This document shows positions 1,254-16,456 of a stretch of 20,000 nt of DNA, one piece after another (position 1 is the stretch's first letter; each line of letters opens with the position of its first letter). The notes under the pieces were generated by a model. The model saw nothing but the letters and a program-made list of their open reading frames with translations. It was not told the DNA's origin and did no database searches. The stretch lies in IMG/VR virus record IMGVR_UViG_3300021255_002352, one strand, 5' to 3'. The translations under genes and the position numbers were made by a program. Source of the stretch: an uncultured virus (IMG/VR IMGVR_UViG_3300021255_002352) (Duplodnaviria; Heunggongvirae; Uroviricota; Caudoviricetes).

Positions 1254-2597
1254 TTAAATTTCAGACACTTTCAATTCACTCAAGCTCTTATCTTCAACCG
1301 TGTTTACAGTTCCTTGATCCAATTGAGGTTTCTCTGAACTTCTATCAGATTGTGAATCAGTTTGTTCCTCAAGTTCTGAATCAGAAACGCTTGGAAATTG
1401 CTGTCCATTTGACTGGTTAATGTTCTTATTCCTAAGTTCATTAGCTCTAGGATCATCAGACGGAAGCAATCCAACAACTTGCCTAAATTCATTCGAAGAC
1501 ATAATTTCGTTTCTTGTAAATTTGTCTGCGAGTTCTGCAAGTTTGGATGTCGGAACAAGCTTGAACGGATCTCTAAAGAACGCTATTGACTGATGCTGTG
1601 TAATTGCGGTCTTTGTAAGAAACTTTCGTTTCATTTCGTCTGCTATCGCTGATACAATTGGTTCAACAGTTCTTGAATAGTAGTTGATCATAGTCTGCTC
1701 GTCCGCTGTACCGTCTAATATCGTAGTAGTGATTCCTAACTGCCCGTATAAGATGTTTGTCAGGTATTCAATCTGCGGTAATAGATTGTTCTCCAAAGAA
1801 CGATTCAACTGTGTGATCTTCTCTGTTGCATCGACATAAGCAATACCATACTTACTTCCAGTAAGTTGCATTTCTATGTCTTTACGACGCTGTTCAGCCT
1901 GTTGTTTTTTAGTATCAGTTTTAACAAGATACGGAAGCTGGATAATCATGTCTAATTTTCCAGCACCACTTTGTTGATCAACAACGTCCATTAATGTCAG
2001 TGTGCGAATTAATCTTTGCAGAACTGAGTTAGGCTCGTTCATTATCGAATAAAGTGGATTTTCTATGATTGCAACGTTTTTCTTGGTAAACCATAATTCT
2101 TCATGCTTACCAGTTCTATCGTTGTAAACATTAACTTTAACGTGGTCGGGAGACCACTCAGTAATCTTCCCGACCCGTAATGAAAGAATGTCAAAGGATC
2201 CTTTTTCTGGATCGATTGATGTGTCAATAGGTACGACTGCAATAGTGCCTTCATCGAACATCGACATGACAATGTCCTGAATAAAAGCCCTCCCGGTCTG
2301 GTCTTTATTTGCCGAGATCGATAGGCAGTCGTTTAACCGTGAATCCATTTTGCTAACAAAATAGCCGTTTTGATCTAATTTAACATGCTCAAATTTGATC
2401 TGTGCTACATCCAAAGCAATTCTATTATAGATTGATGTTACGATGGTTCTTTCATTTCCTCGAGATAATCTATAACGATATGGATTGTATGATGAATAAG
2501 AGATTTCTCCTGGTTCATAATTATATGAAGAAGGATACTCATCTTTATTCATAAAGGCATTCCACGCATGTAATAGCCTATCACCGAATTTCGGCAT
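1254..2597 (-). CDS. Phage portal protein (HK97-like)
   Basis: 447 aa with RIALDVAQI, GKLDMIIQLPY and NEIMSSNEFRQVVGL (portal C-terminal 'NE.R...GL' motif). Located between terminase and protease/capsid genes. Confidence 0.92.
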   Translation of the reverse strand: MPKFGDRLLHAWNAFMNKDEYPSSYNYEPGEISYSSYNPYRYRLSRGNERTIVTSIYNRIALDVAQIKFEHVKLDQNGYFVSKMDSRLNDCLSISANKDQTGRAFIQDIVMSMFDEGTIAVVPIDTSIDPEKGSFDILSLRVGKITEWSPDHVKVNVYNDRTGKHEELWFTKKNVAIIENPLYSIMNEPNSVLQRLIRTLTLMDVVDQQSGAGKLDMIIQLPYLVKTDTKKQQAEQRRKDIEMQLTGSKYGIAYVDATEKITQLNRSLENNLLPQIEYLTNILYGQLGITTTILDGTADEQTMINYYSRTVEPIVSAIADEMKRKFLTKTAITQHQSIAFFRDPFKLVPTSKLAELADKFTRNEIMSSNEFRQVVGLLPSDDPRANELRNKNINQSNGQQFPSVSDSELEEQTDSQSDRSSEKPQLDQGTVNTVEDKSLSELKVSEI

Positions 2598-3524: not shown

Positions 3525-4202
3525 CTAGTTGCAGCCGCAGTTGCCCCAACCGTTATTGCAGCAATTAGGATTCGGAACGGTATATGCAGGAATCGGTGTA
3601 GGATTGAGATATTGCTCTAATGCAGCTGTCTGAGCAGCATTGTTTGCTAAGATCTGAGCAGTCTGTGCATTCTGAGAAGCAGCAAGGTTCTGCATATTAA
3701 GCTGAGTTCTAAGCTGAGCAATAGTTTCATTCTTAGCCTCGATTTCCTGCTGGCACATTTTATCAAGGATGGCCTGAGTATTTGCAGTATTAGATGCAAT
3801 AACGTCTCTTAAAGCATCAGTAAGAGCATTACGATCAGCACAGTTTTCAGTAGCTACTGTATACTTAATATCTGCTAAACCAGAACTAATACCATTAATT
3901 GCCTGAAGAGTGTTAAGATTGCCATTGCAACGAGAAACCTCTGCATTTGCAAATCCGTTAGAAACTGTCTGCGTTAATCCATTAATTCCACTCATAATTG
4001 ATTGCTGATCAAATCCTCTTTGCATACCACCATCTCCATATCCGCCGCGGCCAAAGTTATTTCCATTCATCATAAACAGAAATAAGATCAAAAGCCACCA
4101 AGCTCCGTCACCGTTGAAACCAAATCCATTACCATTGCTATTGCCAGTTACAGCCGCAATGTCCGCTGCGGATAAGCCAGAACCATAATCAGTAAGTGCC
4201 AT
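3525..4202 (-). CDS. Gly/Asn-rich protein with hydrophobic segment, coiled coil and Cys-rich tail (cassette gene 4)
   Basis: 225 aa: AWWLLILFLFMM hydrophobic stretch flanked by Gly/Asn tracts, an Ala/Gln/Asn heptad region, and a C-terminal NCCNNGWGNCGCN. Confidence 0.8.
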   Translation of the reverse strand: MALTDYGSGLSAADIAAVTGNSNGNGFGFNGDGAWWLLILFLFMMNGNNFGRGGYGDGGMQRGFDQQSIMSGINGLTQTVSNGFANAEVSRCNGNLNTLQAINGISSGLADIKYTVATENCADRNALTDALRDVIASNTANTQAILDKMCQQEIEAKNETIAQLRTQLNMQNLAASQNAQTAQILANNAAQTAALEQYLNPTPIPAYTVPNPNCCNNGWGNCGCN

Positions 4203-4227
4203 TTAAAGCGTCCCCCTTTTTATTCTT

Positions 4228-4425
4228 CTAATAATTTTTTCCAGTAATAAGGTTTGCGATCTCTCTAAGCTGATTAAAATCTTGCTGAGACATCTGCCCA
4301 GAATTCAGTAGTTCCTGCACTCTCTGCTGTGGGTTTACATTCTGATTCTGAGTTTTAAATTGCTGAGAAAAATTATTAAAATCCTTCATAAATTGACCCA
4401 AATTATTTAACATCGGATTTATCAT
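4228..4425 (-). CDS. Small Gln/Asn-rich helical protein (cassette gene 3)
   Basis: 65 aa containing NPQQRVQELLNSGQMSQQDFNQL; overlaps the upstream gene. Confidence 0.75.
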   Translation of the reverse strand: MINPMLNNLGQFMKDFNNFSQQFKTQNQNVNPQQRVQELLNSGQMSQQDFNQLREIANLITGKNY

Positions 4426-4834
4426 TTATCGGTCCTCTTTTCGTCATGTGTAGCTGATTCTTGATACCCTTAAACTGACCATCCAAATATTCTTTTAGGT
4501 CGTCAAGTTCCTTCTTTGTAACATAGTTACCTTCGAAGTTATTAGCCTCAATCTTTGGAGTTGTTTCTTTGAACGAGAACGATCTCATAGGTTGAGGAGA
4601 TCCATTGGAATTAGTCGACTTAATCCAGAATTGACCAGATTCAAAGTCCATTAAATAAACTGTATTTCCAGCAGCAACAGGATAATTATTCGCACCTTGT
4701 TCACCATTTACAAATACAATAATCGGTGGAATATTACTATATTGCGACGAAGAATAACCGTTATTATAACTTTGACTATTTCCGTTAAAATTGACGTTTG
4801 AAGGCTGATTATAAGCCGAATTATAGTAAGCCAT
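4403..4834 (-). CDS. Hypothetical protein with Asn/Tyr/Ser-rich N-terminus (cassette gene 2)
   Basis: Start moved to ATG 4834 (MAYYN), which follows AAGGAG and overlaps the upstream stop as TAATG. Core sequence VNGEQGANNYPVAAGNTVYLMDFES. Confidence 0.78.
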   Translation of the reverse strand: MAYYNSAYNQPSNVNFNGNSQSYNNGYSSSQYSNIPPIIVFVNGEQGANNYPVAAGNTVYLMDFESGQFWIKSTNSNGSPQPMRSFSFKETTPKIEANNFEGNYVTKKELDDLKEYLDGQFKGIKNQLHMTKRGPINDKSDVK

Positions 4835-5217
4835 TATCTCTCCTTTCTCCAATAATAAATTGGGACTTCATCTCCAGAATCCCAAGCATCATAATATTTA
4901 CCATCTTTCACAGCAACTACATGCTCACCAGTTCCTAAAAGAAAAACACCAACCGGATTATCTATACAGAATTGTTTTACTGTATAGCAATCCGGACAGG
5001 TGTTTGAAATTGTAAATCTCATGAAACCTTTTGAACGAAGATAGGATCCCCATACTTTGTTAGCAGATGGCATATCCTTCATCTCGAATCCTTTTAGCAT
5101 TATCTCGATATAAACTTTATCCCATGGAATATTAAGTATTTTACACAATCCACGAATAACACAGTCACCTACTTTAATGCCTCTGGGATTAGGATTATAG
5201 AATACAAATCTCTCCAT
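4834..5217 (-). CDS. Small papain-fold (C39-like) cysteine peptidase-like protein (cassette gene 1)
   Basis: 127 aa with GDCVIRGL ... GEHVVAV ... YYDAWDS, a Cys-His-Asp order typical of papain-like folds. Confidence 0.6.
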   Translation of the reverse strand: MERFVFYNPNPRGIKVGDCVIRGLCKILNIPWDKVYIEIMLKGFEMKDMPSANKVWGSYLRSKGFMRFTISNTCPDCYTVKQFCIDNPVGVFLLGTGEHVVAVKDGKYYDAWDSGDEVPIYYWRKER

Positions 5218-5223
5218 TTTGAA

Positions 5224-6210
5224 TTATTTGTCTTTTCCAAACAAATATTTACTAACAAGTTCTATTGAAGTCCCCATACTGTCAGCTATTTCGCTAATAC
5301 TTTCTCCAGATTTGAACATTTCACCTATTCTTTTAACTTGTTTGTCTGAAAGTGTAAACTGTCCTTTTCCATTATTATTTTTGTTCTCTTTATTATTGTT
5401 ATTGTTTTTGTTGCTATTATATACACTTGAATCTTTTGTTTCTTCAAACAACTTGTTCAGAGCTTTTGTTTTATTATAATCTGCCTTTTTATTCTCAATA
5501 TTTGCAAGATTATTCATATAATCTGATTCTTTTTTAGCTTCTGCATATTTATCAGGTTCAGACTTATTATCTTGAGAAATCTTCTTGATTACTGCATCTA
5601 TAAACTTTCTACCAGCATCTTGAGCAACTGGAACAATAACTTTTTCAGTCATCATATCCATAAATTGTTTACCTTTTGAAATCGGTTTTGGATCCAAAGA
5701 ATCAACTTCTTTTCTGATATTAGCAGCATCTTTTTCTAATCTCATTCTTTGAATATATTTCTCAAGTTGCTTATCTGTAAGCTGTTTTATATCCTTTTCG
5801 CGAGGAGAATGAATTTTGATCGGCTTTTGAGAATTTGTATAATCTTGAACTTTTTTGTCAAGATTTTTCTTTTCTTTTTCAATATCCTCAATTGATGCTT
5901 TATCGTCTGCAGCCGTTTTAAGTTTGGATGCAGATACTTTAATTCCTCTAAGTTTTGGCTCTTGAGCTCTTTGCAAAGCTTTTCTTTCAGATCGTGTGGT
6001 TCTGATATATGTTCCGTCTGCAGCTTTACGATATTTATAAGTTCCATTTGACGTCATGATATATTCGCCAGAAGATAACTTTCTATAACGTTTTAGTCCT
6101 TCTTCTGTTAAAGAACCATCTGGATTTTGGTATCTTCGAACACCCCATTTTTGGCCAAGGATACCGTGATGGTAAAGCTCATCTTCTGTAAGATAATAAT
6201 CCATCTTCAT
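5224..6210 (-). CDS. ELYHHG-tagged (DUF7211-like) basic protein with C-terminal HTH
   Basis: N-terminus ELYHHGILGQKWGVRRYQNPDGSLT, Lys-rich helical body, C-terminal GESISEIADSMGTSIELVSKYL HTH pattern. Confidence 0.8.
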   Translation of the reverse strand: MKMDYYLTEDELYHHGILGQKWGVRRYQNPDGSLTEEGLKRYRKLSSGEYIMTSNGTYKYRKAADGTYIRTTRSERKALQRAQEPKLRGIKVSASKLKTAADDKASIEDIEKEKKNLDKKVQDYTNSQKPIKIHSPREKDIKQLTDKQLEKYIQRMRLEKDAANIRKEVDSLDPKPISKGKQFMDMMTEKVIVPVAQDAGRKFIDAVIKKISQDNKSEPDKYAEAKKESDYMNNLANIENKKADYNKTKALNKLFEETKDSSVYNSNKNNNNNKENKNNNGKGQFTLSDKQVKRIGEMFKSGESISEIADSMGTSIELVSKYLFGKDK

Positions 6211-6217
6211 ATCCCCC

Positions 6218-6781
6218 CTATGATTTTTTATATTGTTCTTCTAGATAATCAGCAAAGCTATCCCAACCTGTTTCGCCACCATAAAGAACAATATTATTAA
6301 CTGCATAGTTGCTATATTCTCTCAGCAATGACTGAAGGGAAGCACTATCCTTTGGTGTAATTGAATCTAACTCTGCGTCATATTTGCGTAATATGGCGTT
6401 TATCTTATCTAACTTTGCTTGAAGCTTTCTTGTCTTTGAATTTAAACTATTTGCTTTAATTTCGGCTCTTCTAGCTTTTTCCTCTAGTTTTTCAGCTTTT
6501 GCTTTAGACGTAAAAAGCCCCATTTCTTTTTTTCTAAGTTTTGCCGATTTATTCTCAAGTCTGGCTATCTTCGCTCCGTGTTTTTGAGTTTCTTTATCGA
6601 TCTGCGATTGCACATCTTTTGCTTTCTTCGCATAATAATCGTACTCACCTCTTAACTCAGCATAGCGAATTTTACCTTCTGCAGTTAGAGTGCCGTCTGG
6701 ATTCTGATAGCGTCTTCTACCCCATTTTTGACCGAGGATACCGTAATGATAAAGTTCATCTTTTGTGTAATAGTACTCCAT
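6218..6781 (-). CDS. ELYHYG-tagged (DUF7211-like) basic coiled-coil protein
   Basis: N-terminus ELYHYGILGQKWGRRRYQNPDGTLT is nearly identical to that of the neighbouring gene; the remainder is an unrelated Lys/Ala-rich coiled coil. AGGAGG SD. Confidence 0.8.
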   Translation of the reverse strand: MEYYYTKDELYHYGILGQKWGRRRYQNPDGTLTAEGKIRYAELRGEYDYYAKKAKDVQSQIDKETQKHGAKIARLENKSAKLRKKEMGLFTSKAKAEKLEEKARRAEIKANSLNSKTRKLQAKLDKINAILRKYDAELDSITPKDSASLQSLLREYSNYAVNNIVLYGGETGWDSFADYLEEQYKKS

Positions 6782-6803
6782 TTTGAAATCCTCCTATATC
6801 TCG

Positions 6804-7067
6804 TTATAATATTTGTTTTCCATTCATATATGCATCCAACGAGATACTAAATGGAAAAAACGGTTTTATTTCTTTACTTTTTTTATCTACGGAAAAACTA
6901 GAATTAGCAGGACTTTCATCACTATCACTCTTTTTAAATCCTTCAGGCAAAAGATTAAAAACTAAAATATCGCCATAATCATATGCTGAATCAATAATAA
7001 AACCAGGGAATGACTCGGTAATCATGTCTTTATACTCATTTATTTTTTTCATTATTAATTCCTCCAT
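6804..7067 (-). CDS. Putative immunity protein, copy 2
   Basis: 87 aa, starting 3 bp after the toxin-like gene. Paralog of 8655-8894, sharing IIDSAYDYGDILVFN, S.DKK.K..K.F.PF and LD.Y.NGK.I. Confidence 0.6.
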   Translation of the reverse strand: MEELIMKKINEYKDMITESFPGFIIDSAYDYGDILVFNLLPEGFKKSDSDESPANSSFSVDKKSKEIKPFFPFSISLDAYMNGKQIL

Positions 7068-7070
7068 ACA

Positions 7071-8645
7071 CTAATGACGATTTGAATTTCCAAGATCAAT
7101 ATTGCAATTCTTGTCTATATACAAGCACTCGTCATCCGAAAGATATACTTTATACAAAACCTCTCCGTCGATAACGGTTGTATAAACCTTATATCCCATC
7201 TGATCATACTTATCCGCCAAAGCATAAGCAGTTGTTTTTGGTTTTCCTTTTTTGCCTGGATTTGTTGTATCCTCATCTTTGTTTTTAACAGCGCTTAATG
7301 CAGAATCAGTTAATTCTTCATTATCTGTTCTAAAGTAGATAACTGTTTTTGCATACTTTGCATAATCATCTACATTAACAACTTCCCCTGATTGACAATC
7401 TCTAAGAATAACTTTCTTATCCTTAACTTCATAAACAACTGAATGCCCACCACCTTTTGTCCATTTTAGAATAAAGCTTCCGCTAGCTCCTTCTCCTTGT
7501 GACAAAATGTCTTTTTCGATTTTCTTTATTTGCTCAGAAGTAAATGACGAATCACTTTTTCCAGAGTATTCAAATGTCGTTCCAGGATATGCCATTTCAT
7601 TTGCATATTTCTTTTCCGAGTATGTATCATTTGTTAATGAAGCCATAAAGGATTTTGCTCTTTTTGCAAAATCGTTTTTAACATTATTATGTGTATAGAA
7701 ACTATACTCAGTTGCAAATGTATTTGCAGTTTCCTTTTCTTCTAATCCTTGATGATAATCGTCGGCTTCTACATCATAGCCTTTTCTTCTCATACGATAT
7801 GCAAGAGTACAATATACACAGTTTATCTTAAATGAATCATCTTCAAGATAATATGGATTTACCCTTTTCATATCTTCATCTTCAGTCATTTCACGACTTT
7901 TCTTTTTTACCTCTGAAAATGACGAAGGGTTTTTCTTATTAACCTGTTTCATCATTTTTTCGACTTCTTTATTCCATGAGTCTATTACTTTTTGCGTTTT
8001 TTCATCAAAACTCTTTTCAGAATTAGAAGTATCATTATTCTTATTATTTTCTTTGTTAAGTATCGATTTTGAAAAAATCAAAGATTTGGCCTTATTGATT
8101 AAAAAACTAGTATTTTTATAATCTAAAGATTTCAATACATTCTTTTTGCTTGTATTAATGCTGCCAATAGTTTTATTAACTACACGATCTTTAAAATCTT
8201 GCTTTACTTTATTAATATTAGAGATCTTTTCTTTTACAGCATTGCTTGCTTTACTAACTTTGCTTACAACAGCCTTTTCTATAAAATCTTTAGCATTTTT
8301 TATTACAGCATGACGATCTTCTTTCGTTCTGTCCTTGACAGTTTTATTGATAATTTTCGAAATTGCACTTCTATCAAATTTACTAGATTGCTGATTTTGA
8401 TTACTTTTGTTCAAAACATATTGCTTTGCAGAATTGGAGACATTATTGAAAGTGTTAATAACTGTCTTACCAAAACTCTTTACATTACGTTTCGATGATG
8501 ACATAAACTTGTCAAATTCAGATTTTGTGTAAAAGTATCTATAATTCGGCTTAGATTCTGATCCAAGGTTTATTCGATCATAATATTTATGTTTTTCTCT
8601 CTTACCGCCTAATTTTATACCCCAATGATAAAGCTCTTGTTCCAT
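7071..8645 (-). CDS. ELYHWG-tagged protein with C-terminal papain-fold toxin (Tox-PL/glutamine deamidase-like) domain
   Basis: N-terminus ELYHWGIK...HKYYDR...YRYFY, a Lys/Asn-rich linker, then INCVYCTLAYRMRRKGYDVEA ... WTKGGGHSVVYE ... ILRDCQSG (NC / H / DxQ triad). Confidence 0.75.
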   Translation of the reverse strand: MEQELYHWGIKLGGKREKHKYYDRINLGSESKPNYRYFYTKSEFDKFMSSSKRNVKSFGKTVINTFNNVSNSAKQYVLNKSNQNQQSSKFDRSAISKIINKTVKDRTKEDRHAVIKNAKDFIEKAVVSKVSKASNAVKEKISNINKVKQDFKDRVVNKTIGSINTSKKNVLKSLDYKNTSFLINKAKSLIFSKSILNKENNKNNDTSNSEKSFDEKTQKVIDSWNKEVEKMMKQVNKKNPSSFSEVKKKSREMTEDEDMKRVNPYYLEDDSFKINCVYCTLAYRMRRKGYDVEADDYHQGLEEKETANTFATEYSFYTHNNVKNDFAKRAKSFMASLTNDTYSEKKYANEMAYPGTTFEYSGKSDSSFTSEQIKKIEKDILSQGEGASGSFILKWTKGGGHSVVYEVKDKKVILRDCQSGEVVNVDDYAKYAKTVIYFRTDNEELTDSALSAVKNKDEDTTNPGKKGKPKTTAYALADKYDQMGYKVYTTVIDGEVLYKVYLSDDECLYIDKNCNIDLGNSNRH

Positions 8646-8654
8646 ATAAGTCTC

Positions 8655-8894
8655 CTAAATAATTCGCTTACCATTTAAATACGTATCCAAAGGTATTTCG
8701 AATGGTAAAAACGCCTTAACTTTCTTTGTTTTTTTATCGATACTTACACTTCTGTTTAAAGGACCTTCATCGTAATCATCTTTAACAAAATCTGATGGAA
8801 TCATATTAAAAACTAAAATGTCACCATAGTCATAAGCAGAATCAATGATGTATTTCGGAAATGCTTTGAGAACAATCTTTTTATATTCATCCAT
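8655..8894 (-). CDS. Putative immunity protein, copy 1
   Basis: 79 aa overlapping the stop of the upstream toxin-like gene, with AAGGAG SD. Paralog of 6804-7067. Confidence 0.6.
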   Translation of the reverse strand: MDEYKKIVLKAFPKYIIDSAYDYGDILVFNMIPSDFVKDDYDEGPLNRSVSIDKKTKKVKAFLPFEIPLDTYLNGKRII

Positions 8895-9879
8895 TTCTAT
8901 TCTCCTTCATATTAATTTCCGCTTTTGTTACCTCATCGACATATTTAACAAACCCATCATAAAAAATCAGGAAGTATTTACCTCCCTGAGGATCTAAAAG
9001 AACTTTTATTTTGTCATGAAAAACAAAAACCTTATATCCAAGTTTCCTAAATTCGTTAATCAAAAAATCTCTAGACGAAATATGTGAATCTACATTTTTA
9101 TTCTTCAAACATAGAAGAATTCTATCTGTCGGAGCTTCATTGTCAGTTCTAAAATAGAATAATTTTTTAGATCTGGAAACTAAATCAAACAAGCTATAAG
9201 TTTTTGCTACTTGACTGTCAATTAATAGAACCGAATCATTTCTTATTTCATATGCAACGGCATGTGCTCCACCAAAAGACCAATCAACTATAAAAATTCC
9301 TCTTGCACCAGAACCCTGAGCAAGCATAATGCGTTCGATTTCATCCGCCGTAAATTCGGATGTATTAAAATACTTATATCCGGGATATAAAATATCAAAT
9401 TTTCGTTGCTTATCTAGTGTGTCGCTAATTATTCTCGTTCTATTTTTCGCATTGAAATGAGTCCACCAAGAATAAATCTCATATATACTATTATTTCGTT
9501 CATCTTGCCTAAGCGATTCGAAATGATAATCATCAGCCTCAACATCATAACCCCTACGACGCAAATCATAAACTGCTGCACAATATGCACAATTTATTGT
9601 AAAAGATCGATCATCTCTAAAATATGGGTTAACTCTACGCATATCTTCAAAAATCGACATTTTACGTTTTTTCATTTTTAAATCATTCAAACTTGATGGG
9701 TTATTTGATTTAACTTGATTAACCATTTCTTGAATGGATTTTCGCCATTTTATGATTATGTCTAGTTCACTAGTTCTATTTGCATAAATAGGCATTTGAA
9801 TACTTTTATCTAGTTTTTTAAGAATCTCCTCATTTCTAGCAATAGGAGACACTATAAAAAGTTCTTCTTGTTCTTTCAT
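8887..9879 (-). CDS. Papain-fold toxin-like (Tox-PL/glutamine deamidase-like) protein without the N-terminal tag
   Basis: INCAYCAAVYDLRRRGYDVEADDYH ... WSFGGAHAVAYE ... LLIDSQ ... YFRTDNE; a clear paralog of the C-terminal part of 7071-8645. Confidence 0.72.
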   Translation of the reverse strand: MKEQEELFIVSPIARNEEILKKLDKSIQMPIYANRTSELDIIIKWRKSIQEMVNQVKSNNPSSLNDLKMKKRKMSIFEDMRRVNPYFRDDRSFTINCAYCAAVYDLRRRGYDVEADDYHFESLRQDERNNSIYEIYSWWTHFNAKNRTRIISDTLDKQRKFDILYPGYKYFNTSEFTADEIERIMLAQGSGARGIFIVDWSFGGAHAVAYEIRNDSVLLIDSQVAKTYSLFDLVSRSKKLFYFRTDNEAPTDRILLCLKNKNVDSHISSRDFLINEFRKLGYKVFVFHDKIKVLLDPQGGKYFLIFYDGFVKYVDEVTKAEINMKENRNG

Positions 9880-9898
9880 AGAAAATCTCCATCATTCT

Positions 9899-11662
9899 TT
9901 AGAACGAATCTTTATTATGCTTGAACGCGACAAACGCATCCATCATTGCTGCAACACAGTCAATCTTTTGATCAGATCTTTTTTTGTATAGTTTACGGTT
10001 TCCGTTACTATCTTCAAGAGTAATACAATTTCCCATTGCAAAGTTCATAATTTGCTCGTCAAATAAAAGAAGCCTCTCTTCAGAAAGCTTCTTTAATTCG
10101 CCCAATGGAACAGATTCTGTTCTAGCACCCTGAATAACTTTTTCAACGCCAAACGGTCCTCGTTCAGTCATCCATCGCTCAACAAATTCTTTTGCATTAT
10201 ATGGGTCATACCCAAAGCAATTTATATCATACTGGTGCGCGTCAATAAATTGATCTAAATCCTCATAGACGTCCATCATATCAAGAATCGCACCATCCAT
10301 GACCATAAGACTTCCTTCATTTATAAAATCATCATACTTACTTCTAAGTGCGGAAGGCAGTTTTTGATAAGTGAATTGGCTTATATAATTTCTCGACTTG
10401 ATTCCAAAAGCTCCATTCCTTAATGGAAACATAAATGTAAAAGCACAGAAATCATCTCCTTGTGAAAGGTCTGCTCCAAGAGCGCATTGCATCTTGTCGA
10501 AAGATCTAAAGTGGTGCGGGATAGTTTCTTCATATGGAAAATAATATGTATAACCTTCTAATGGAATTCCGAATCTTTTTGCAAGAATATCGTTTCTGTT
10601 TGAAGGCGATTTCTCAGCTCTCTCTTTGTCTTGTGCATAAACATCGTATGTTACAGTTATTCCAAGATTTGGATTAGCTTTTACCCATTTACTAGGATCC
10701 TCTACTTCTTCAACAGAGTCCAATCTATAATACCAGATTGACACACGCGGATTAATATAATCTCCTTTAAGAATGTCTATAAGCTCCATTTTGATTGTAT
10801 CTCCAGGACCATTACGAACTGTACCTTCAGAAGAAGTTGCAACGATCAAATAATCGTTTACTTCATCAGTTCCGCCTTGCTCCTTAGTACATGACTGTTC
10901 TATTGCGCCAATAACATCTTCTCTTGTATCACCAGAAAGCCATTCATCAACAGTTGCTATCTTAATTCGATATCCTTGTAACTTGTCTTTGCTCATTGGC
11001 CTTGTTTCTATAGACGAATTAGTTATAAAATTCTGTATGCCTTTTTTGGTTGATGCTAATTTAACGCGATCTGCTTTATTGCCTGTTGTATTTTGCAACG
11101 ACCCATATGTCATAAACTTAAACATTGGTCCTCTTGCTCTAGTAATGGCAGTCCTAATTGGAGAAAGAACTTCATCCGCTTGTAACAATGTTGGAGCAAC
11201 AACAATCTGCAAACTTGATGATCTATCACAAATAAGATGATAAGCTTGAAGAAAAGCTGAATACATTGTCTTCGCAGCGCCTCTTGCTATGATTAAAAAT
11301 TGTTTTGTTATTAGTCGTTTTTTTATATATTTTGTTTCGTAATGGCCACCACGTCCATTCGGATTCGGAACATATGTCTCTCTAAGAATGAAATAATACC
11401 ATCCGAATATTTGTTCTGCCCAGAGTTTGAACGAGTCCAGCATTTTAACATCTCCGCCATTTGTAAGAGTTAATTCATTCTCACAAAAAGCGACAAAGCC
11501 ATTCATCGCATCTTTATCATAGTAAACTCCTGGGTTACTAATAAGATCATCGATACGGTTCATTTCCATAGCGATGTACTTATTAATTTGTGTCTCTCCT
11601 CTCATTACTGATTCTCTAAATCTGCCATAATAAATCGGTGTGGCAGTATTAGACAAACCCAT
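9899..11662 (-). CDS. terL: Terminase large subunit
   Basis: 587 aa with Walker A IARGAAKT, Walker B IATVDE, WVKANPNLG, and nuclease-domain motifs LGADLS, GYDPYNA and KIDCVAAMMDA. Confidence 0.95.
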   Translation of the reverse strand: MGLSNTATPIYYGRFRESVMRGETQINKYIAMEMNRIDDLISNPGVYYDKDAMNGFVAFCENELTLTNGGDVKMLDSFKLWAEQIFGWYYFILRETYVPNPNGRGGHYETKYIKKRLITKQFLIIARGAAKTMYSAFLQAYHLICDRSSSLQIVVAPTLLQADEVLSPIRTAITRARGPMFKFMTYGSLQNTTGNKADRVKLASTKKGIQNFITNSSIETRPMSKDKLQGYRIKIATVDEWLSGDTREDVIGAIEQSCTKEQGGTDEVNDYLIVATSSEGTVRNGPGDTIKMELIDILKGDYINPRVSIWYYRLDSVEEVEDPSKWVKANPNLGITVTYDVYAQDKERAEKSPSNRNDILAKRFGIPLEGYTYYFPYEETIPHHFRSFDKMQCALGADLSQGDDFCAFTFMFPLRNGAFGIKSRNYISQFTYQKLPSALRSKYDDFINEGSLMVMDGAILDMMDVYEDLDQFIDAHQYDINCFGYDPYNAKEFVERWMTERGPFGVEKVIQGARTESVPLGELKKLSEERLLLFDEQIMNFAMGNCITLEDSNGNRKLYKKRSDQKIDCVAAMMDAFVAFKHNKDSF

Positions 11663-11665
11663 TGG

Positions 11666-12043
11666 CTAAATCTCTCCAATTTCTCCAATGTAATTTTGTG
11701 TAATAAATCCTCTCCATTCTAATTCATTAATCGCTTCTTTGATTGCTGTAGAAATAGCTGAAGAGGTTGGAGGATCAAAGATCATCTTTGTTTTTAATCC
11801 CGCCCATGTAATGAGAGTTGATAAATCTATAGATTTTTCATGTAATAAAATGTCTGACCATTTCGTTGTATTGTCAGTGATTTTGTACGCTTCATCTGAC
11901 AAGCCTTCCTGGTAGATAATAAATAATACTGCGTTAATTGCAATTATTAGATTCGGATCAAAGTCATGGTTATCGGCATGAATACCAATAGTCTCTTTGA
12001 TTGAATCCATAATGCTTTCGTCCATTGGATTTTTATCGTCCAT
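11666..12043 (-). CDS. Head-tail connector/adaptor-like protein
   Basis: 125 aa helical protein (SIMDSIKETIGI...FDPNLIIAIN...KMIFDPPTSS...ELEWR) in the packaging module; resembles gp6/gp15-type connectors. Confidence 0.65.
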   Translation of the reverse strand: MDDKNPMDESIMDSIKETIGIHADNHDFDPNLIIAINAVLFIIYQEGLSDEAYKITDNTTKWSDILLHEKSIDLSTLITWAGLKTKMIFDPPTSSAISTAIKEAINELEWRGFITQNYIGEIGEI

Positions 12044-12046
12044 AGT

Positions 12047-12469
12047 CTACCTCCTCCAAAGGCATGTATCATTAGGAGAACGATCAGTCAAAGTAAAATT
12101 TATTACATCGCTCTCACTTCCATAATGAATCAAATTATGCGTATCTAATTTTGTAGTAATTAAATTTTCTGGATCAAATACAATGGGATCTCTTTTTAAA
12201 ATGTTTTCTACAGTTATTGGATTTATGTGATGAACTAAAGCGCCATTAAAAATATCGTATCCATCACATGCTAGATCACAGCCATTGTCTCTTATTATTA
12301 TTTTGTTTCTTACACTGCGCCATTCTGGACATTTATAAAGAAGCTGGTTTAAATATCTCTCATGACCAAATGTTTCACCGGCAACGCTTCCATGAAGCAT
12401 AAGGTATAAAACACGATCTCTGAAATTATCTATAGTAATCAATTCACTATAAGATCTTGAGCGGATCAT
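12047..12469 (-). CDS. HNH endonuclease (terminase-associated)
   Basis: EWRSVRNKIIIRDNGCDL...VHHINPI...ENLIT...THNLIH. The likely start is ATG 12469 (MIRSRSY) rather than 12520. Confidence 0.88.
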   Translation of the reverse strand: MIRSRSYSELITIDNFRDRVLYLMLHGSVAGETFGHERYLNQLLYKCPEWRSVRNKIIIRDNGCDLACDGYDIFNGALVHHINPITVENILKRDPIVFDPENLITTKLDTHNLIHYGSESDVINFTLTDRSPNDTCLWRR

Positions 12470-12809
12470 CTTCGTCTTCTTCTGATTCTGATGCAGATCC
12501 AGTATAAATTCCAAATGCACGCATAGCGCTTTCGAATAATTCTTCCGAATGCTTAGCAGATTTCAACGCTTCTGTTTTAGCAATCAGTAATTCATTTTCT
12601 CTTCTTAATTTTTCGGTCTCTAATTTCGCTTTTGTTGATCCAAGTTTAAGAAAGTGGACCAATTCTTGCGATGATGCTGTATGATTTCGAATCCTATACT
12701 CAACTTCATTTGCTGCTAAAGCTATAAGTTGGTTTTCACGACCTTCTTCTGTGGAAGCAGGCCTTAGTTTTGGTGTAGGTTCATCTACTATTACACGCTT
12801 TTTAGGCAT
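12447..12809 (-). CDS. Putative terminase small subunit-like protein
   Basis: Likely start ATG 12809 (MPKKRV, SD GAAAGGAAG). About 120 aa and helical, with a KAKLETEKLRRENELL coiled coil; first gene after the candidate cos. Confidence 0.55.
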   Translation of the reverse strand: MPKKRVIVDEPTPKLRPASTEEGRENQLIALAANEVEYRIRNHTASSQELVHFLKLGSTKAKLETEKLRRENELLIAKTEALKSAKHSEELFESAMRAFGIYTGSASESEEDEDDPLKIL

Positions 12810-13462: not shown

Positions 13463-16456
13463 TTACTGTTCACCAGCAAGAAGCTTAGATACAGTACTAG
13501 ATGATAGTCCTAGTGCCATAGCTATCTCTGCATTGCTACGGCCGTTAAGCTTCATCTGTTTAGCTCTGCTTTCCATTGCTGGAGTAATTGTTTTTCTCGA
13601 ACGAGGTGTGGCTCTCTCCTTTACCTTGCTCATATCAGTGTTGTCAAACACTTTACGTAAAGTATTTGCATGCACAGCACCAGACTGAATCGCTTCCCAC
13701 ATTCGATCTGTAATTTCTATTTTTGTTTTTGTAGCTCCTACTTGTTCCCTAGCTCTGGTTATCTCTTGTTGCCTTAGTTTCTTAAGCTCAGACTTCTTCA
13801 TGTCTGGGTTAGATTGCTTCTTAGCCTTGACAATACATGTAGCTATAACCTGTGCCTGACGTTCCCTAGGCTTATTCTTAGTAGCGACATCTAACTGAGA
13901 CTCTAAGTCTCTTACCTCCTTAGCATACAGCTTAGCTGCTTTAGAGCTGTATTCAACGCCCTTAGTCTCATATGATAGCTTACGGGCGGAGTTAGCCATA
14001 GCCTTCATGGTATTAGCGTATGCCGCATAGGCCTGCTCTATAGGGGAGTTGTATGAAGAGATGAGTGTTCTAGCGTCATCTGTTTCAGCCATCTTTGTGC
14101 TAGGTTGCGTGCGCACTTTCGTAACTTGAGTTATTTCGCCAGTCCTCTTATTCTCCTTGAGTACGGTGTAGGTAGCTTTAGGATCATCTTTATATAATAA
14201 GGCACCTTCTGGACGAGTAGGATCATAATCTGGACGCCCCTTAATATTTACTCTAGGCTGTCCTTTTCTTTTCACTACATCTTTTTCAGATTTGGCCATG
14301 GAAACCAAAGTAGATGCCCCATATACTTCTTTTCCATTCTCATCGAGATGCAACTGGTATTTCTTCTTAAGAGCTTCGATTCCATTCTGAACATAACTAG
14401 ATTTGTAATCTAACTTATGTTTCTCAGCATCAATAACTACCATTGAATGCCTTACTGCTCTAGCAAGTTCATCATTAGTAGCGCCTTTAATTGTCATATC
14501 CGTAATTAAGTTTGAAATCCTACCCATTTCATTCTGGGTATTCTTCATAACTTTAAACTCGATACCTGCTTTATTAAAGTAATGTTCATTACCTTTTGCA
14601 TCGGTATAAGTCTTCTTCGGATCGCAACCATATGTATCTTTTGGATCGAAACCTTCTAATCCTTTTAATCTCGGAGCATTCTTAACATTAGATCTGCTTG
14701 AAATAGGAATTACCATTGCAGTATCACCATCAAAGTCTGCTCCTGAAAGTCTATCTGCTACTTCGGCATTAATACCGACAGCGTCTCTAGAGTTCTTACC
14801 AATTAGTTTTACAGCATCTTTCTGTTTATTATTAACAGTAAGAATTGGTATTTCAAATAATCCACCATGAGGATAACGAATCAACGCAACTCTTTCACCA
14901 TCATTGTAGTTAGGAGCATAGATTTCATTATCTTTCATTGACGGAACTGGAAGAAGAACCTGGAACTTTTGTCTTGGTAATGCCGCAGCTGTTAAATGCA
15001 CTGCAGCATAATCACAATCATTGGCAAAAGAATCCAAATAATACTTTTTAACTGTATTATTTGTAAGACTCTTAATGTCATCTAATTCCTGCTGCTTTTC
15101 AACAGTTGCTACATTTAATTGCCTCTTAACTAATTGAAGATTTTGCTTTGATAAGAACTGAGCAGACAATGTATCTTTCCAGTTATCCCAGTCGCCTTCA
15201 TCTGATCTTTTATTAATTAAACCTAATTTAGCATTAGGACTATCAAATTTAGATTCAAGTCTTTTTCCAGTCTTTGAATCATAGTAGTACTGTCCGCCTT
15301 GTTCTGAATCTTTAATCAATGAGCCAAAAGGATTATCTGGATCATCTTTAATCTTCTTAAGAACGTCTCTCATCTCAGTTCCAACATGTTTATTGGTGTT
15401 AAAGATTACATCAACTCCATCTGGAAACTTAGATTGATCTGTTGCGTAAGCAGCCATTCCTTTTAAGTATCTATCTCCATCAACAAGAATTCTTACCTGT
15501 GCATAATTCTTTTCGCCAAGAGAAAGATCAGGAACATTTCTCCTTAATTCAATAAGACCGTCTTTTTCTTTACCGCCTTCTTCAGCATATCGAATCATTA
15601 ATCTTTTTGGATCCATTGATTCCGGATACTCGAATTTACGTTTAAAGTCTTTACCATTAGCTATTGCTTCATATTCTTTTAAGCTTTTAATATGCTCATA
15701 ATTATAGAAATCTTTAAACTCTGTTTCTGGAGTAGCAATTACATTCATTGTTGTCTGCCTAGATCCTGTTGGATCTGTAACATTCGGAATACGACCACCA
15801 TAGGTCTTATATCCTTCACCTTCAAGAATGTAAACGGCATTATCTAGTTTAGTTCTAGTAATTCCAAGTTCTTTTTCTACACCAGGTCCAATATCGATCA
15901 TTGCTTTTGGATCATCTTTAGAAAGATCTGTTAATCGTTCCTTTAAAAAATCTGCAGCTTTCTGAGCAACTTCAATATTTGCTTTTACAGATGGCTTTAA
16001 TAAAGATCTTACAGAAGACTCATTTGGTAATCCCATTTTTCTGGCAATCTCAGAATAGCCATATTTATGATTACCATTTTCATCAAGTGTGTTCCATAAA
16101 GCTTCGGCTCTATTAATCTTATCCATTTTGTCAAGATTTGACGCAAGAGTAATAGCCTGTCTGTATTCAGTTGTGCTCATCTTTAGCATCTTAGCTACAG
16201 CTGTTTCACCTTTAAACGTTTTTCCATAGTCTGGATTTTTTACTTTTTCACCATTTCTTAGAATATATTCTTCGTTATCTGTATAATTTAATCGTTTAGA
16301 TCTCAACTCTTTAACAAACGAAAGAAAATCTCCAGAATGCTGAAAAGGCGCATCACCAGACCCCCATGGGTATCTTCCAGAACCAGGAGTGCCTTTAATA
16401 TGGTCAATACCATAGTGCATTAAAAAATCATCGAGAGACGGTTTCTCGTTACTCAT
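13463..16456 (-). CDS. Single-chain two-barrel RNA polymerase-like protein (YonO / cellular RdRP-like) with terminal HTH domains
   Basis: 997 aa with LIRYPHGG...VGIN...RLSGADFDGDTAMV (RxP plus DxDGD catalytic loop) and YAQVR...YLKGMA. HTH patterns YSEIARKMGLPNESSVRSLL and SNAEIAMALGLSSSTVSKLL. Confidence 0.75.
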   Translation of the reverse strand: MSNEKPSLDDFLMHYGIDHIKGTPGSGRYPWGSGDAPFQHSGDFLSFVKELRSKRLNYTDNEEYILRNGEKVKNPDYGKTFKGETAVAKMLKMSTTEYRQAITLASNLDKMDKINRAEALWNTLDENGNHKYGYSEIARKMGLPNESSVRSLLKPSVKANIEVAQKAADFLKERLTDLSKDDPKAMIDIGPGVEKELGITRTKLDNAVYILEGEGYKTYGGRIPNVTDPTGSRQTTMNVIATPETEFKDFYNYEHIKSLKEYEAIANGKDFKRKFEYPESMDPKRLMIRYAEEGGKEKDGLIELRRNVPDLSLGEKNYAQVRILVDGDRYLKGMAAYATDQSKFPDGVDVIFNTNKHVGTEMRDVLKKIKDDPDNPFGSLIKDSEQGGQYYYDSKTGKRLESKFDSPNAKLGLINKRSDEGDWDNWKDTLSAQFLSKQNLQLVKRQLNVATVEKQQELDDIKSLTNNTVKKYYLDSFANDCDYAAVHLTAAALPRQKFQVLLPVPSMKDNEIYAPNYNDGERVALIRYPHGGLFEIPILTVNNKQKDAVKLIGKNSRDAVGINAEVADRLSGADFDGDTAMVIPISSRSNVKNAPRLKGLEGFDPKDTYGCDPKKTYTDAKGNEHYFNKAGIEFKVMKNTQNEMGRISNLITDMTIKGATNDELARAVRHSMVVIDAEKHKLDYKSSYVQNGIEALKKKYQLHLDENGKEVYGASTLVSMAKSEKDVVKRKGQPRVNIKGRPDYDPTRPEGALLYKDDPKATYTVLKENKRTGEITQVTKVRTQPSTKMAETDDARTLISSYNSPIEQAYAAYANTMKAMANSARKLSYETKGVEYSSKAAKLYAKEVRDLESQLDVATKNKPRERQAQVIATCIVKAKKQSNPDMKKSELKKLRQQEITRAREQVGATKTKIEITDRMWEAIQSGAVHANTLRKVFDNTDMSKVKERATPRSRKTITPAMESRAKQMKLNGRSNAEIAMALGLSSSTVSKLLAGEQ

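What the first reader, a model, noticed from the sequence alone, without database searches (positions are those of the whole stretch)
6804..9879. Tandem papain-fold toxin / immunity pairs between terL and portal: a MuF-independent phage polymorphic toxin locus
Seen: two consecutive gene pairs. Each has a protein with NCxxC...RRxGYDVEADDYH...GGxH...DxQ...YFRTDNE followed immediately by a small paralogous protein sharing the identical 15-aa block IIDSAYDYGDILVFN. Established: an NC/H/DxQ triad typifies Tox-PL papain-fold toxin domains, toxin genes are followed by small immunity genes (Imm35/YrhB-like for Tox-PL), and MuF-fused phage toxins sit in head modules. No MuF domain was recognised here; the 524-aa copy instead carries the ELYHWG tag. 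Inference: a virion-delivered peptidase/deamidase effector with a cognate inhibitor, acting in host takeover, counter-defence or competition.
Basis: partly seen in the sequence, partly recalled or inferred. Interest (0 to 1): 0.85.

Follow-up and report, generated by a model that had tools for sequence, protein, structure and literature searches.

The report
Phage papain-fold toxins with inhibitor partners
An uncultured phage carries, between its DNA-packaging and portal genes, two copies of a papain-type enzyme of a known bacterial toxin family, each followed by a small protein predicted to plug its active site; this is a new variant of the known phage-borne toxin and immunity theme.

Summary
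Two minus-strand gene pairs lie at 9879..6804: ToxA (330 aa) with an overlapping 79-aa gene, then ToxB (524 aa) with an 87-aa gene.

- **Toxins:** both pass the Pfam cut-off for PF15644 (Tox-PL1, "Gln_amidase") and keep the NC / H / DxQ signature. The ToxA model is papain-like (SpvD Z 10.3, OspI Z 8.7).
- **Small proteins:** they are not detectable Imm35 members. They belong to a large, unnamed, mostly phage family (1306 representatives) with a distant PepSY (peptidase-propeptide) link.
- **Binding:** a controlled complex prediction supports it (score 0.64, best control 0.01). The partner lies over Cys97 and His206.
- **Recurrence:** across 78 related viral loci, 62 of 77 toxin genes are followed within 60 nt by a small ORF.
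- **Carriers:** the toxin domain is fused to MuF-type modules, to the DUF7211 tag, or to nothing.
- **Accessory status:** only 7 of 61 TerL-selected relatives carry it.

Best reading: an accessory cysteine hydrolase effector, probably loaded into the virion, held inactive by a PepSY-like inhibitor. Nothing has been tested at the bench.

MuF-fused Tox-PL1 was described in 2012, so this is a new variant of a known kind. This scan had already noted the DUF7211 "His-site" tag on other DNA.

The parts
8887..9879 (-). ToxA, 330 aa. Helical N-terminal region (1-57), Tox-PL1 papain-fold domain (about 62-252; Cys97, His206, Asp221, Gln223), C-terminal alpha/beta domain (268-323). No N-terminal tag.
   Evidence: PF15644 at 28.7 bits against a cut-off of 24.1. 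Model pLDDT 86.9. VIA-align: SpvD Z 10.3, OspI Z 8.7. Invariant columns. GGAG 8 nt before the ATG.
9130..9657 (-). Tox-PL1 catalytic domain of ToxA (residues about 75-250). Cys97 codon at 9589-9591, His206 codon at 9262-9264.
   Evidence: Pfam stretch 95-223. Structural matches span 62-252. Conserved NC, H and DxQ columns.
8655..8894 (-). smA, 79 aa. Predicted inhibitor (immunity) of ToxA, PepSY-like alpha + 4-strand fold. Overlaps the ToxA stop by 8 nt.
   Evidence: Model pLDDT 92.5. Complex score 0.64 against best control 0.01, with contacts to ToxA 94-98 and 199-207. Family profile reaches 1306 representatives. AGGAG before the ATG.
7071..8645 (-). ToxB, 524 aa. N-terminal L-Y-H-W tag plus a KHKYY...YRYFY motif, a long low-complexity linker, the Tox-PL1 domain (274-420; Cys276), and the same C-terminal domain as ToxA.
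   Evidence: PF15644 at 33.7 bits against a cut-off of 24.1. 37% identity to ToxA. The same N-terminal motif occurs in homologues. AGGAG before the ATG.
6804..7067 (-). smB, 87 aa as listed (probably 82 aa from the ATG at 7052). Paralogue of smA and predicted inhibitor of ToxB.
   Evidence: 58% identity to smA. Identical 15-aa block with 6 synonymous differences. GGAGG 8 nt before the ATG at 7052.
6218..6781 (-). 187-aa protein with an N-terminal DUF7211 tag (ELYHYGILGQKWG). Context: a tagged candidate cargo protein.
   Evidence: PF23847 at 28.0 bits against a cut-off of 27.
5224..6210 (-). 328-aa protein with an N-terminal DUF7211 tag and a weak C-terminal HTH match. Context: a tagged candidate cargo protein.
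   Evidence: PF23847 at 27.4 bits against a cut-off of 27. HTH_38 at E 0.0038, below its cut-off.
9899..11662 (-). Large terminase; upstream boundary of the cargo island.
   Evidence: TerL_nuclease E 6e-35. phrog_9 E 2.5e-103.
1254..2597 (-). Portal protein; downstream boundary of the cargo island.
   Evidence: Phage_portal E 9e-20. phrog_12 E 3e-47.

Best explanation
Each pair is a cysteine hydrolase effector of the Tox-PL1 family (peptidase or glutamine deamidase; which one is unknown) plus a small PepSY-like inhibitor made from the same transcript.

Proposed sequence of events (all inferred):
1. In the producing cell the inhibitor sits on the Cys/His site and keeps the enzyme harmless.
2. 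The enzyme is an accessory cargo of the head module. ToxB carries an N-terminal Leu-x-His tag of the kind that marks the neighbouring DUF7211 proteins, the phage RNA polymerase and the spacer of the capsid precursor. It is therefore probably loaded into the capsid and trimmed there.
3. It enters the next host with the DNA, free of its inhibitor, and modifies a host protein. The purpose could be takeover, counter-defence or killing of competitors.

What is shown in silico: family membership, fold, conserved triad, predicted binding over the active site, recurrent gene pairing, and accessory distribution.

What is inferred: activity, neutralisation, packaging, delivery and target.
For: **Family and fold**
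- PF15644 is above its cut-off in both proteins.
- N96, C97, H206 and Q223 are invariant and D221 is at least 90% conserved in 30 aligned relatives, picked from 82 hits.
- The fold is papain-like: SpvD Z 10.3 (rmsd 3.5, 153 aligned) and OspI Z 8.7 (rmsd 4.4, 147 aligned). OspI is named with PF15644 in PMC10318531.

**Partner**
- Complex score 0.64 against best control 0.01. That mark was reached by 116 of 157 solved complexes and 2 of 215 mismatched pairs. Runs agree in at least 73% of contacts, and partner pLDDT is at least 79. My own alignments were used, so these counts hold only roughly.
- The interface includes ToxA 94-98 and 199-207, that is Cys97 and His206.
- 62 of 77 toxin ORFs in related viral loci are followed within 60 nt by an ORF of at most 130 aa.
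- An iterated profile of the small proteins finds 37 such ORFs in 33 loci.
- PepSY, a peptidase-propeptide domain, matches 14 of 150 family members at E <= 0.01 and one locus member above its cut-off.

**Head association of the toxin domain** (71 unique relatives)
- DUF7211: 25
- Phage_Mu_F: 8
- Phage_min_cap2: 6
- VG15: 2

**Accessory nature**
- Of 61 TerL-selected relatives with both terL and portal in the locus, 7 carry Tox-PL1.
- The terL-portal gap ranges from 0 to 7871 nt, median 528; here it is 7301 nt.

**Tag**
- L-x-H-aromatic occurs in the first 45 aa of 24 of 71 toxins against 26 of 349 control ORFs.
- All 8 His of the capsid-precursor spacer have L, I or M at -2; 0 of 10,000 shuffles reach this.
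Against: - No experiment exists on any part of this.
- ToxA has no tag or carrier module, so nothing indicates that it is packaged.
- ToxB's tag fails the DUF7211 model at E <= 0.1.
- The toxin domain is followed by a further domain of about 70 aa, unlike classic C-terminal toxin modules.
- The small proteins are more alike (58%) than the toxins (37%), which argues against sharp cognate specificity.
- The window's own small proteins do not match PepSY or Imm35 at E <= 1.
- Structural matches of the smA model are weak: best Z 5.4, Foldseek nothing at E <= 0.001.
- Foldseek on the ToxA model also gave no match at E <= 0.001; AvrPphB came at E 4e-3.
- In some relatives the small domain is fused N-terminal to the toxin itself (L072 E 7e-8, L042 E 1e-5). 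That is unusual for an immunity protein.
- The complex model is a prediction from my own alignments.
Confidence: 0.55

Rival explanations
1. Processing or releasing peptidase. The Tox-PL1 domain acts on the phage's own proteins: it cuts tagged cargo, or frees itself or its neighbours from their carrier during head assembly or ejection. The small protein only times this activity, as a propeptide-like regulator.
For: - Zhang et al. 2012 proposed exactly this for MuF-fused Tox-PL1 (section 12 read).
- PepSY domains are known as peptidase propeptides (Pfam description).
- In L042, L063 and L072 the small domain sits N-terminal to a DUF7211 tag and the toxin in one polypeptide, like a pro-domain.
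- Giant proteins carry several internal DUF7211 tags and end in Tox-PL1, for example L015 (1375 aa) and L011 (1004 aa).
Against: - Tox-PL1 is absent from 54 of 61 TerL-selected relatives, within up to 10 kb on each side.
- Several of those relatives still carry DUF7211-tagged genes, for example L116, L117, L136 and L145. Tag processing and head assembly therefore do not need it.
- Two diverged paralogues, each with its own partner, look more like a conflict system than a housekeeping enzyme.
Confidence: 0.15
2. The small proteins are packaging chaperones or adaptors rather than inhibitors. They bind the enzyme to keep it loadable or to hand it to the procapsid, and enzyme toxicity is not the point.
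For: - Binding is predicted but inhibition is not shown.
- The small domain is fused to DUF7211-tagged proteins that lack a Tox-PL1 match in 9 of 150 family members, and in L007 and L008.
- The small proteins are better conserved than the enzymes.
Against: - The predicted interface covers Cys97 and His206 rather than a distal surface.
- The identical 15-aa block supplies contact residues 18, 19, 21, 28 and 30, which touch the conserved loop 200-204 next to His206.
- The pairing also holds for MuF-fused and untagged enzymes.
Confidence: 0.1
3. Cell-wall hydrolase used at entry: a virion-borne isopeptidase or amidase of papain fold that opens the wall of the next host.
For: The pseudomurein endoisopeptidase PeiR scores Z 7.8 and MepS Z 4.8 among the fold matches.
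Against: - The best sequence and fold matches are to the cytoplasm-acting effector group (PF15644; SpvD, OspI, AvrPphB), not to NlpC/P60.
- A dedicated cytoplasmic partner covering the active site is not expected for a wall enzyme.
- The genes lie in the head module, not the tail module.
Confidence: 0.05

Closest known systems
MuF-Tox-PL1 polymorphic toxins of prophages (Zhang et al. 2012, PMC3482391; MuF toxin family, Jamet et al. 2017, PMC5576092)
   Same: Same toxin domain (PF15644, NC-H-DxQ). Same genomic setting among terminase, portal and capsid genes. A small gene follows. Capsid loading and delivery with the DNA has been proposed. Eight MuF-fused relatives were recovered here.
   Different: No MuF domain in ToxA or ToxB. 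ToxB has a short Leu-x-His tag and ToxA has nothing. A further domain follows the toxin. The pair is duplicated in tandem. The partner belongs to a PepSY-like family.
OspI (Shigella) and SpvD (Salmonella) type III effectors
   Same: Papain fold with a Cys-His-Asp site. Best structural matches to the ToxA model: Z 8.7 and 10.3. OspI is cited with PF15644.
   Different: Those act on eukaryotic proteins and have no inhibitor gene. Here the host is a bacterium and the target is unknown. Sequence identity in the structural alignments is 12-13%.
Cpe1-Cpi1, an interbacterial papain-like protease toxin and its immunity protein (PMC12136450)
   Same: A papain-fold toxin that acts inside bacteria (it cleaves GyrB and ParE), with an adjacent small immunity gene (abstract and passages). 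The entry titled 'Papain-like cysteine protease toxin/immunity pair' (9l5u) appears among the Foldseek rows.
   Different: It is related to C39-type peptidases (those of ABC exporters, per the paper's introduction) and is delivered by T6SS or CDI. Its immunity protein blocks substrate binding without covering the active site. Here the predicted partner covers Cys97 and His206.
PepSY domain (PF03413), the propeptide of M4 peptidases and YpeB
   Same: Alpha + four-strand fold in the smA model. Matches to YpeB (Z 5.0), YpmB (Z 4.6) and UipA (Z 4.5). Sequence matches in 14 of 150 family members. Proposed role as a peptidase inhibitor (recalled from Yeats et al. 2004, not read here).
   Different: Known PepSY domains accompany secreted metallopeptidases or membrane proteins. 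Here the domain is a cytoplasmic stand-alone partner of a cysteine hydrolase. The window's own copies do not reach the Pfam model.
Phage T4 internal proteins and Alt with their capsid-targeting sequence
   Same: A short N-terminal peptide shared by unrelated proteins encoded in the head module. It resembles the cutting sites of the capsid precursor.
   Different: The peptide is unrelated in sequence. Neither packaging nor cleavage has been shown for DUF7211 or for ToxB.

Membership tests
Tox-PL1 / Pfam PF15644 (Gln_amidase) | Score at or above the curated Pfam cut-off (24.1 bits) | tested here: met
   ToxA 28.7 bits, ToxB 33.7 bits.
Tox-PL1 / Pfam PF15644 (Gln_amidase) | Conserved NC - H - DxQ signature (Zhang et al. 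2012) | tested here: met
   N96, C97, H206 and Q223 invariant, D221 at least 90% conserved, in 30 aligned sequences. Both window copies keep all of them.
Tox-PL1 / Pfam PF15644 (Gln_amidase) | Papain-like fold | tested here: met
   Model pLDDT 86.9. SpvD Z 10.3, OspI Z 8.7, AvrPphB Z 7.7 over residues 60-261. Foldseek was weak: AvrPphB at E 4e-3, probability 0.99.
Tox-PL1 / Pfam PF15644 (Gln_amidase) | Cysteine-dependent peptidase or deamidase activity | not testable with these tools
   Needs an enzyme assay.
MuF polymorphic toxins | N-terminal MuF domain (PF04233) | tested here: not met
   No PF04233 in ToxA or ToxB at E <= 0.1, nor in the other window ORFs scanned.
Polymorphic toxin systems in general | [quoted passage not shown] | tested here: not met
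   Some 75 (ToxA) to 85 (ToxB) residues follow the YFRTDNE end of the domain. They form a separate alpha/beta domain in the model, residues 268-323.
Polymorphic toxin systems in general | Small immunity gene immediately downstream that binds the toxin | tested here: met
   Adjacency: 8-nt overlap for pair 1, 3-nt gap for pair 2. The pairing recurs in 62 of 77 relatives. Binding is predicted only: 0.64 against best control 0.01. Neutralisation is untested.
Imm35 (PF15567, YrhB-like) | Match to the Pfam model | tested here: not met
   No match for smA or smB at E <= 0.1, and none in 34 locus members at E <= 1. None in 150 family members at E <= 0.01. Leads only: an Atlas cluster at rank 27, score 0.82, and one unrelated-looking partner, L024, at E 0.0022 and below cut-off.
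PepSY (PF03413) | Match to the Pfam model and an alpha + four-strand fold | tested here: inconclusive
   Window copies have no match at E <= 1. Family members: 1 of 32 above cut-off (L056, 32.1 against 24), and 14 of 150 at E <= 0.01. The fold matches are weak: YpeB Z 5.0, YpmB Z 4.6.
DUF7211 (PF23847) tag | Match to the Pfam model | tested here: not met
   ToxB has none at E <= 0.1 and ToxA none. The neighbouring 187-aa and 328-aa proteins pass: 28.0 and 27.4 against 27. ToxB shares only ELYH-x-GI with them.
Capsid-targeted cargo (T4 CTS type) | Protein found in virions and cut at the tag by the head protease | not testable with these tools
   Only motif statistics are available.

The most novel reading that the evidence does not exclude
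The terL-portal gap of this phage lineage is a swap site for tag-addressed cargo, and the PepSY-like protein is a detachable pro-domain of a capsid-borne zymogen.

In the fused forms the order is inhibitor, then the Leu-x-His tag, then Tox-PL1. The head protease would cut at the tag inside the capsid. The enzyme would then be armed only in the particle and injected into the next cell. This would be a phage counterpart of secretion-system effector and immunity pairs, with its own address code.
Probability: 0.3. Interest if true: 0.75.

Novelty: new variant of a known kind. Interest (0 to 1): 0.55.

Why it matters
Phage-carried toxins fused to MuF have been known on paper since 2012, but their role is still open. 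This locus shows three things:
- The same enzyme domain travels in head modules on at least three other carriers or on none.
- It is accessory.
- It has a dedicated partner from a large unnamed family of 1306 representatives, with a peptidase-propeptide flavour.

That gives a concrete, small and cheap system in which to ask what phage virions inject besides DNA, and how a phage keeps a dangerous enzyme silent until delivery: two enzymes, two 80-aa partners, one catalytic cysteine.

Tried and rejected
**Searches that found nothing useful**
- Megablast of 4000-12000 against 50,697 phage records: no match.
- phmmer of ToxA against PDB sequences: nothing relevant; best hit E 0.027, a glycosylase.
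- Profile of the small proteins against PDB sequences: nothing relevant.
- Foldseek of both models against the PDB: no row at E <= 0.001. The VIA-align wide search was needed.
- No whole genome is held for the window.
- The scan of bacterial genomes gave only distant relatives (at most 32% over long matches), in Clostridia, Coriobacteriia, Nocardia and other contigs. The host stays unknown.
- The paper found for 'VIP2-like toxin' was not relevant.

**Ideas tested and dropped**
- My first iterated profile of the small proteins drifted when long toxin proteins entered it. It was redone with ORFs of at most 130 aa only.
- The C-terminal domain of ToxA/ToxB as a second, in-cis copy of the small protein: hhalign probability 0.3%.
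- Recent gene conversion as the cause of the identical 15-aa block: rejected, because of 6 synonymous differences.
- Tox-PL1 as the enzyme that cuts the DUF7211 tags: weakened, because tagged genes occur in relatives without Tox-PL1.
- Imm35 membership of the small proteins: see Membership tests. hhalign against the Imm35-like partner cluster gave only 30%.

**Not done**

**Literature searches on novelty**
- 'PF15644': 1 paper.
- 'DUF7211': 0 papers.
- 'Tox-PL1 / Imm35 / papain fold toxin': 8 papers, 2 of them relevant.
- 'PepSY + immunity protein + toxin': 4 papers, none on this.
- 'PepSY + cysteine protease + inhibitor + phage': 3 papers, none on this.
- Subscription journals are not covered by these searches.
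Full report
**1. What is there**

All genes of the window run on the minus strand. In reading order, as evidence, they are:
- a YonO-like RNA polymerase (16456..13463; phrog_4291)
- two small genes
- an HNH endonuclease
- a Phage_connect_2 protein
- TerL (11662..9899)
- ToxA (9879..8887, 330 aa) and smA (8894..8655, 79 aa)
- ToxB (8645..7071, 524 aa) and smB (7067..6804, 87 aa)
- two DUF7211 proteins (187 and 328 aa)
- six further small ORFs
- the portal (2597..1254)
- a protease-spacer-capsid precursor that runs off the window

The four genes of the finding are tightly packed: an 8-nt overlap, then a 9-nt gap and a 3-nt gap. Each has a Shine-Dalgarno site. For smB the site fits the ATG at 7052 better than the one at 7067.

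ToxA and ToxB are 37% identical. smA and smB are 58% identical. The identical 15-aa block differs at 6 synonymous positions out of 45 nt, so it is conserved by selection and not by recent copying.

**2. The large proteins**

Both pass the curated cut-off of Pfam PF15644: 28.7 and 33.7 bits against 24.1. This family is the Tox-PL1 of Zhang et al. 2012, who define it by an NC-H-DxQ signature (section 12 read whole). Ozhelvaci and Steczkiewicz 2023 name OspI together with it (passages).

A database search gave 82 relatives. In an alignment of 30 of them, N96, C97, H206 and Q223 are invariant and D221 is at least 90% conserved.

An AlphaFold model of ToxA (pLDDT 86.9) has three parts: a helical N-terminal region, a papain-like domain (62-252) and a separate alpha/beta domain (268-323). 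Foldseek found nothing at E <= 0.001, although its rows were dominated by papain-fold proteins. The wider VIA-align search gave:

| Match | Z | rmsd | aligned residues |
|---|---|---|---|
| SpvD | 10.3 | 3.5 | 153 |
| a chain titled YopQ | 9.1 | not quoted | not quoted |
| OspI | 8.7 | 4.4 | 147 |

Below these came AvrPphB, C39 peptidases, staphopains and other papain-fold enzymes. The papain fold and the family are therefore settled. The chemistry (peptidase, deamidase or transglutaminase) is not.

**3. The small proteins**

Neither matches any Pfam family at E <= 0.1.

In 78 related viral loci found with the toxin alignment (184 relatives, best 80 kept), 62 of 77 toxin ORFs that have a following plus-strand ORF are followed within 60 nt by one of at most 130 aa. 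A profile started from smA and smB and iterated on short ORFs only reaches 37 ORFs in 33 loci. A first attempt had drifted and was discarded.

Of the partners that the profile missed:
- one cluster of four joins by hhalign at 94% probability
- another partner at 66%
- an Imm35-like cluster only at 30%
- three spurious ORFs used as negative controls score 0%

The same profile finds 1306 representatives at E <= 0.001 among 1.84 billion proteins. Of 150 members scanned (smA plus the best 149), at E <= 0.01:
- 14 match PepSY
- 9 carry a DUF7211 tag behind the small domain
- 1 carries PF15644
- none matches Imm35

Among the locus members, one (L056) passes the PepSY cut-off, 32.1 against 24 bits.

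The smA model (pLDDT 92.5) is one helix packed on a four-strand sheet. Its structural matches are weak (best Z 5.4) but include BLIP-like and PepSY proteins: YpeB Z 5.0, YpmB Z 4.6, UipA Z 4.5.

I therefore call the family PepSY-like, with membership inconclusive, and not Imm35.

**4. Do they bind?**

A controlled prediction of ToxA 60-330 with smA, each with its alignment, scored 0.64 (three runs: 0.62-0.65). The best of three controls scored 0.01. The mark was reached by 116 of 157 solved complexes and 2 of 215 mismatched pairs. The runs share at least 73% of contacts, and partner pLDDT is at least 79. Because my own alignments were used, the calibration holds only roughly.

The interface on ToxA includes 94-98 and 199-207, that is the catalytic Cys97 and His206. 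On smA it includes residues 18, 19, 21, 28 and 30 of the identical block.

This supports an inhibitor that covers the active site. It does not show it.

**5. Carriers and setting**

Among 71 unique toxin ORFs of the related loci, PF15644 is found at E <= 1e-4 in 64. The accompanying domains are:

| Accompanying domain | ORFs |
|---|---|
| DUF7211 | 25 |
| Phage_Mu_F | 8 |
| Phage_min_cap2 | 6 |
| VG15 | 2 |
| LPD3 | 1 |
| PF15644 alone | 24 |
| nothing at E <= 1e-4 | 5 |

Several of these ORFs are near-identical, so these are not independent counts.

In cultured actinophages the same domain sits in the C-terminal half of a 701-aa protein annotated as capsid maturation protease (Vibaki gp6). 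It also makes up a 271-aa protein annotated 'VIP2-like toxin', which is followed by a gene annotated 'immunity protein' (Echild gp3 and gp4). Both hit PF15644 and nothing else at E <= 0.01.

The domain is thus a recurrent passenger of head modules, and the MuF fusion described in 2012 is one of several carriers.

**6. The tag**

Earlier notes of this scan, on five other genomes, read DUF7211 as a 'His-site' cargo tag whose Leu-x-His start also studs the spacer of the capsid precursor. These are unchecked AI notes. I used them as a lead and tested what I could here.

- The 187-aa and 328-aa proteins, ToxB and the RNA polymerase all open with L-x-H followed by an aromatic residue.
- In the capsid-precursor spacer (residues 131-335), all 8 His have L, I or M two residues before. 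This is reached by 0 of 10,000 shuffles.
- L-x-H-aromatic occurs in the first 45 residues of 24 of 71 toxins, 49 of 60 DUF7211-like proteins and 26 of 349 other ORFs of at least 150 aa.
- ToxB and many of its homologues carry a second motif behind the site, KY-I/V-x-K ... RYFY, and ToxB fails the DUF7211 model.
- ToxA and its nearest relatives have no tag.

Packaging is therefore a reasonable inference for ToxB and an open question for ToxA.

**7. Accessory or core?**

I fetched relatives by TerL alone (244 found, best 80 kept, 60-99% identity).
- Tox-PL1 is present in 10 of the 80 loci.
- It is present in 7 of the 61 loci that hold both terL and portal.
- The terL-portal gap ranges from 0 to 7871 nt with a median of 528. 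Here it is 7301 nt.
- Close relatives differ. L113 (TerL 87% identical, contig of 85 kb) has two pairs, while L114 and L115 have one.
- Tagged genes occur in relatives without Tox-PL1.

The flanks are at most 10 kb, so 'absent' means absent from the locus fetched. Even so, the pair is clearly an accessory cassette in a hypervariable slot. This argues against an essential role in head assembly and against Tox-PL1 being the enzyme that cuts the tags.

**8. Fused forms**

In L042, L063 and L072 one polypeptide reads small domain, then DUF7211 tag, then Tox-PL1 (small-domain E-values 1e-5, 1.5e-3 and 7e-8). In L007 and L008 the gene after a giant toxin starts with the small domain followed by a tag.

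If the tag is a cutting site, these look like zymogens with a removable inhibitor. That is the basis of the more novel reading. It is also the best argument for the rival view that the system is about timed processing rather than toxicity.

**9. Verdict**

- The partner family is PepSY-like, not Imm35.
- The toxin domain is not terminal.
- The tag claim holds only loosely, and only for ToxB.

The principle (a phage head module carrying Tox-PL1 with a neighbouring small gene) is in print: Zhang et al. 2012, of which I read passages and section 12; and Jamet et al. 2017, of which I saw two passages only.

I found nothing in the searched library on three points: the PepSY-like partner family, the non-MuF carriers, and the accessory cargo slot. 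Subscription journals are not covered.

I rate it a new variant of a known kind, of moderate interest.

Noticed in passing
window 13463-16456 (-): A 997-aa YonO-like single-subunit RNA polymerase (phrog_4291, E 0, annotated 'RNA-dependent RNA polymerase'; Pfam RdRP only at E 0.0023). It opens with FLMHYGI, a variant of the Leu-x-His tag, and ends in weak HTH / sigma-70 region 4 matches that are below cut-off.
   Followed up: partly
window 3-1232 (-), residues 131-335 of the open ORF: The head protease is fused to an acidic spacer and, by homology to 594-699-aa relatives, to the capsid protein. All 8 His in the spacer have L, I or M two residues before (0 of 10,000 shuffles reach this).
   Followed up: partly
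window 4834-5217 (-): A 127-aa protein (phrog_3754, E 2.5e-30) with a Cys...His...Asp pattern by eye. Atlas neighbours include a cluster named 'Endopeptidase', and a cluster with Peptidase_C39 on 15% of its members (score 0.91). It may be a third papain-type protein in the same island.
   Followed up: partly
L003 / L112 1369-2328 versus window 11662-11666: A contig that is 99% identical in ToxA and TerL carries an extra 319-aa DUF7211-like gene between the connector gene and terL. The window has only 3 nt there, so tagged genes come and go between near-identical phages.
   Followed up: no
L007 1571-4657, L011 3130-6144, L015 2362-6489: Giant ORFs of 1004-1375 aa with several internal DUF7211 tags and a terminal Tox-PL1 domain. 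They look like polyproteins of tagged modules.
   Followed up: no
window 8887-9078 and 7071-7300 (-): C-terminal 60-75 residues of ToxA and ToxB: A shared alpha + four-strand domain follows the toxin domain (model residues 268-323). It has no family match. hhalign to the small-protein family gave 0.3%, although two homologues carry a 'DP-x-TGA' stretch that resembles it by eye.
   Followed up: partly
L001 1543-2675 (Mycobacterium phage Echild genes 3 and 4): The protein annotated 'VIP2-like toxin' matches PF15644 (E 1.8e-13) and no ADP-ribosyltransferase family at E <= 0.01. The public annotation of this gene in many cluster A mycobacteriophages may name the wrong fold.
   Followed up: partly
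window 11666-12520 (-): A Phage_connect_2 head-connector gene and an HNH endonuclease lie directly upstream of terL. This is an unusual place for a connector gene, yet the order is conserved in 22 related loci.
   Followed up: no
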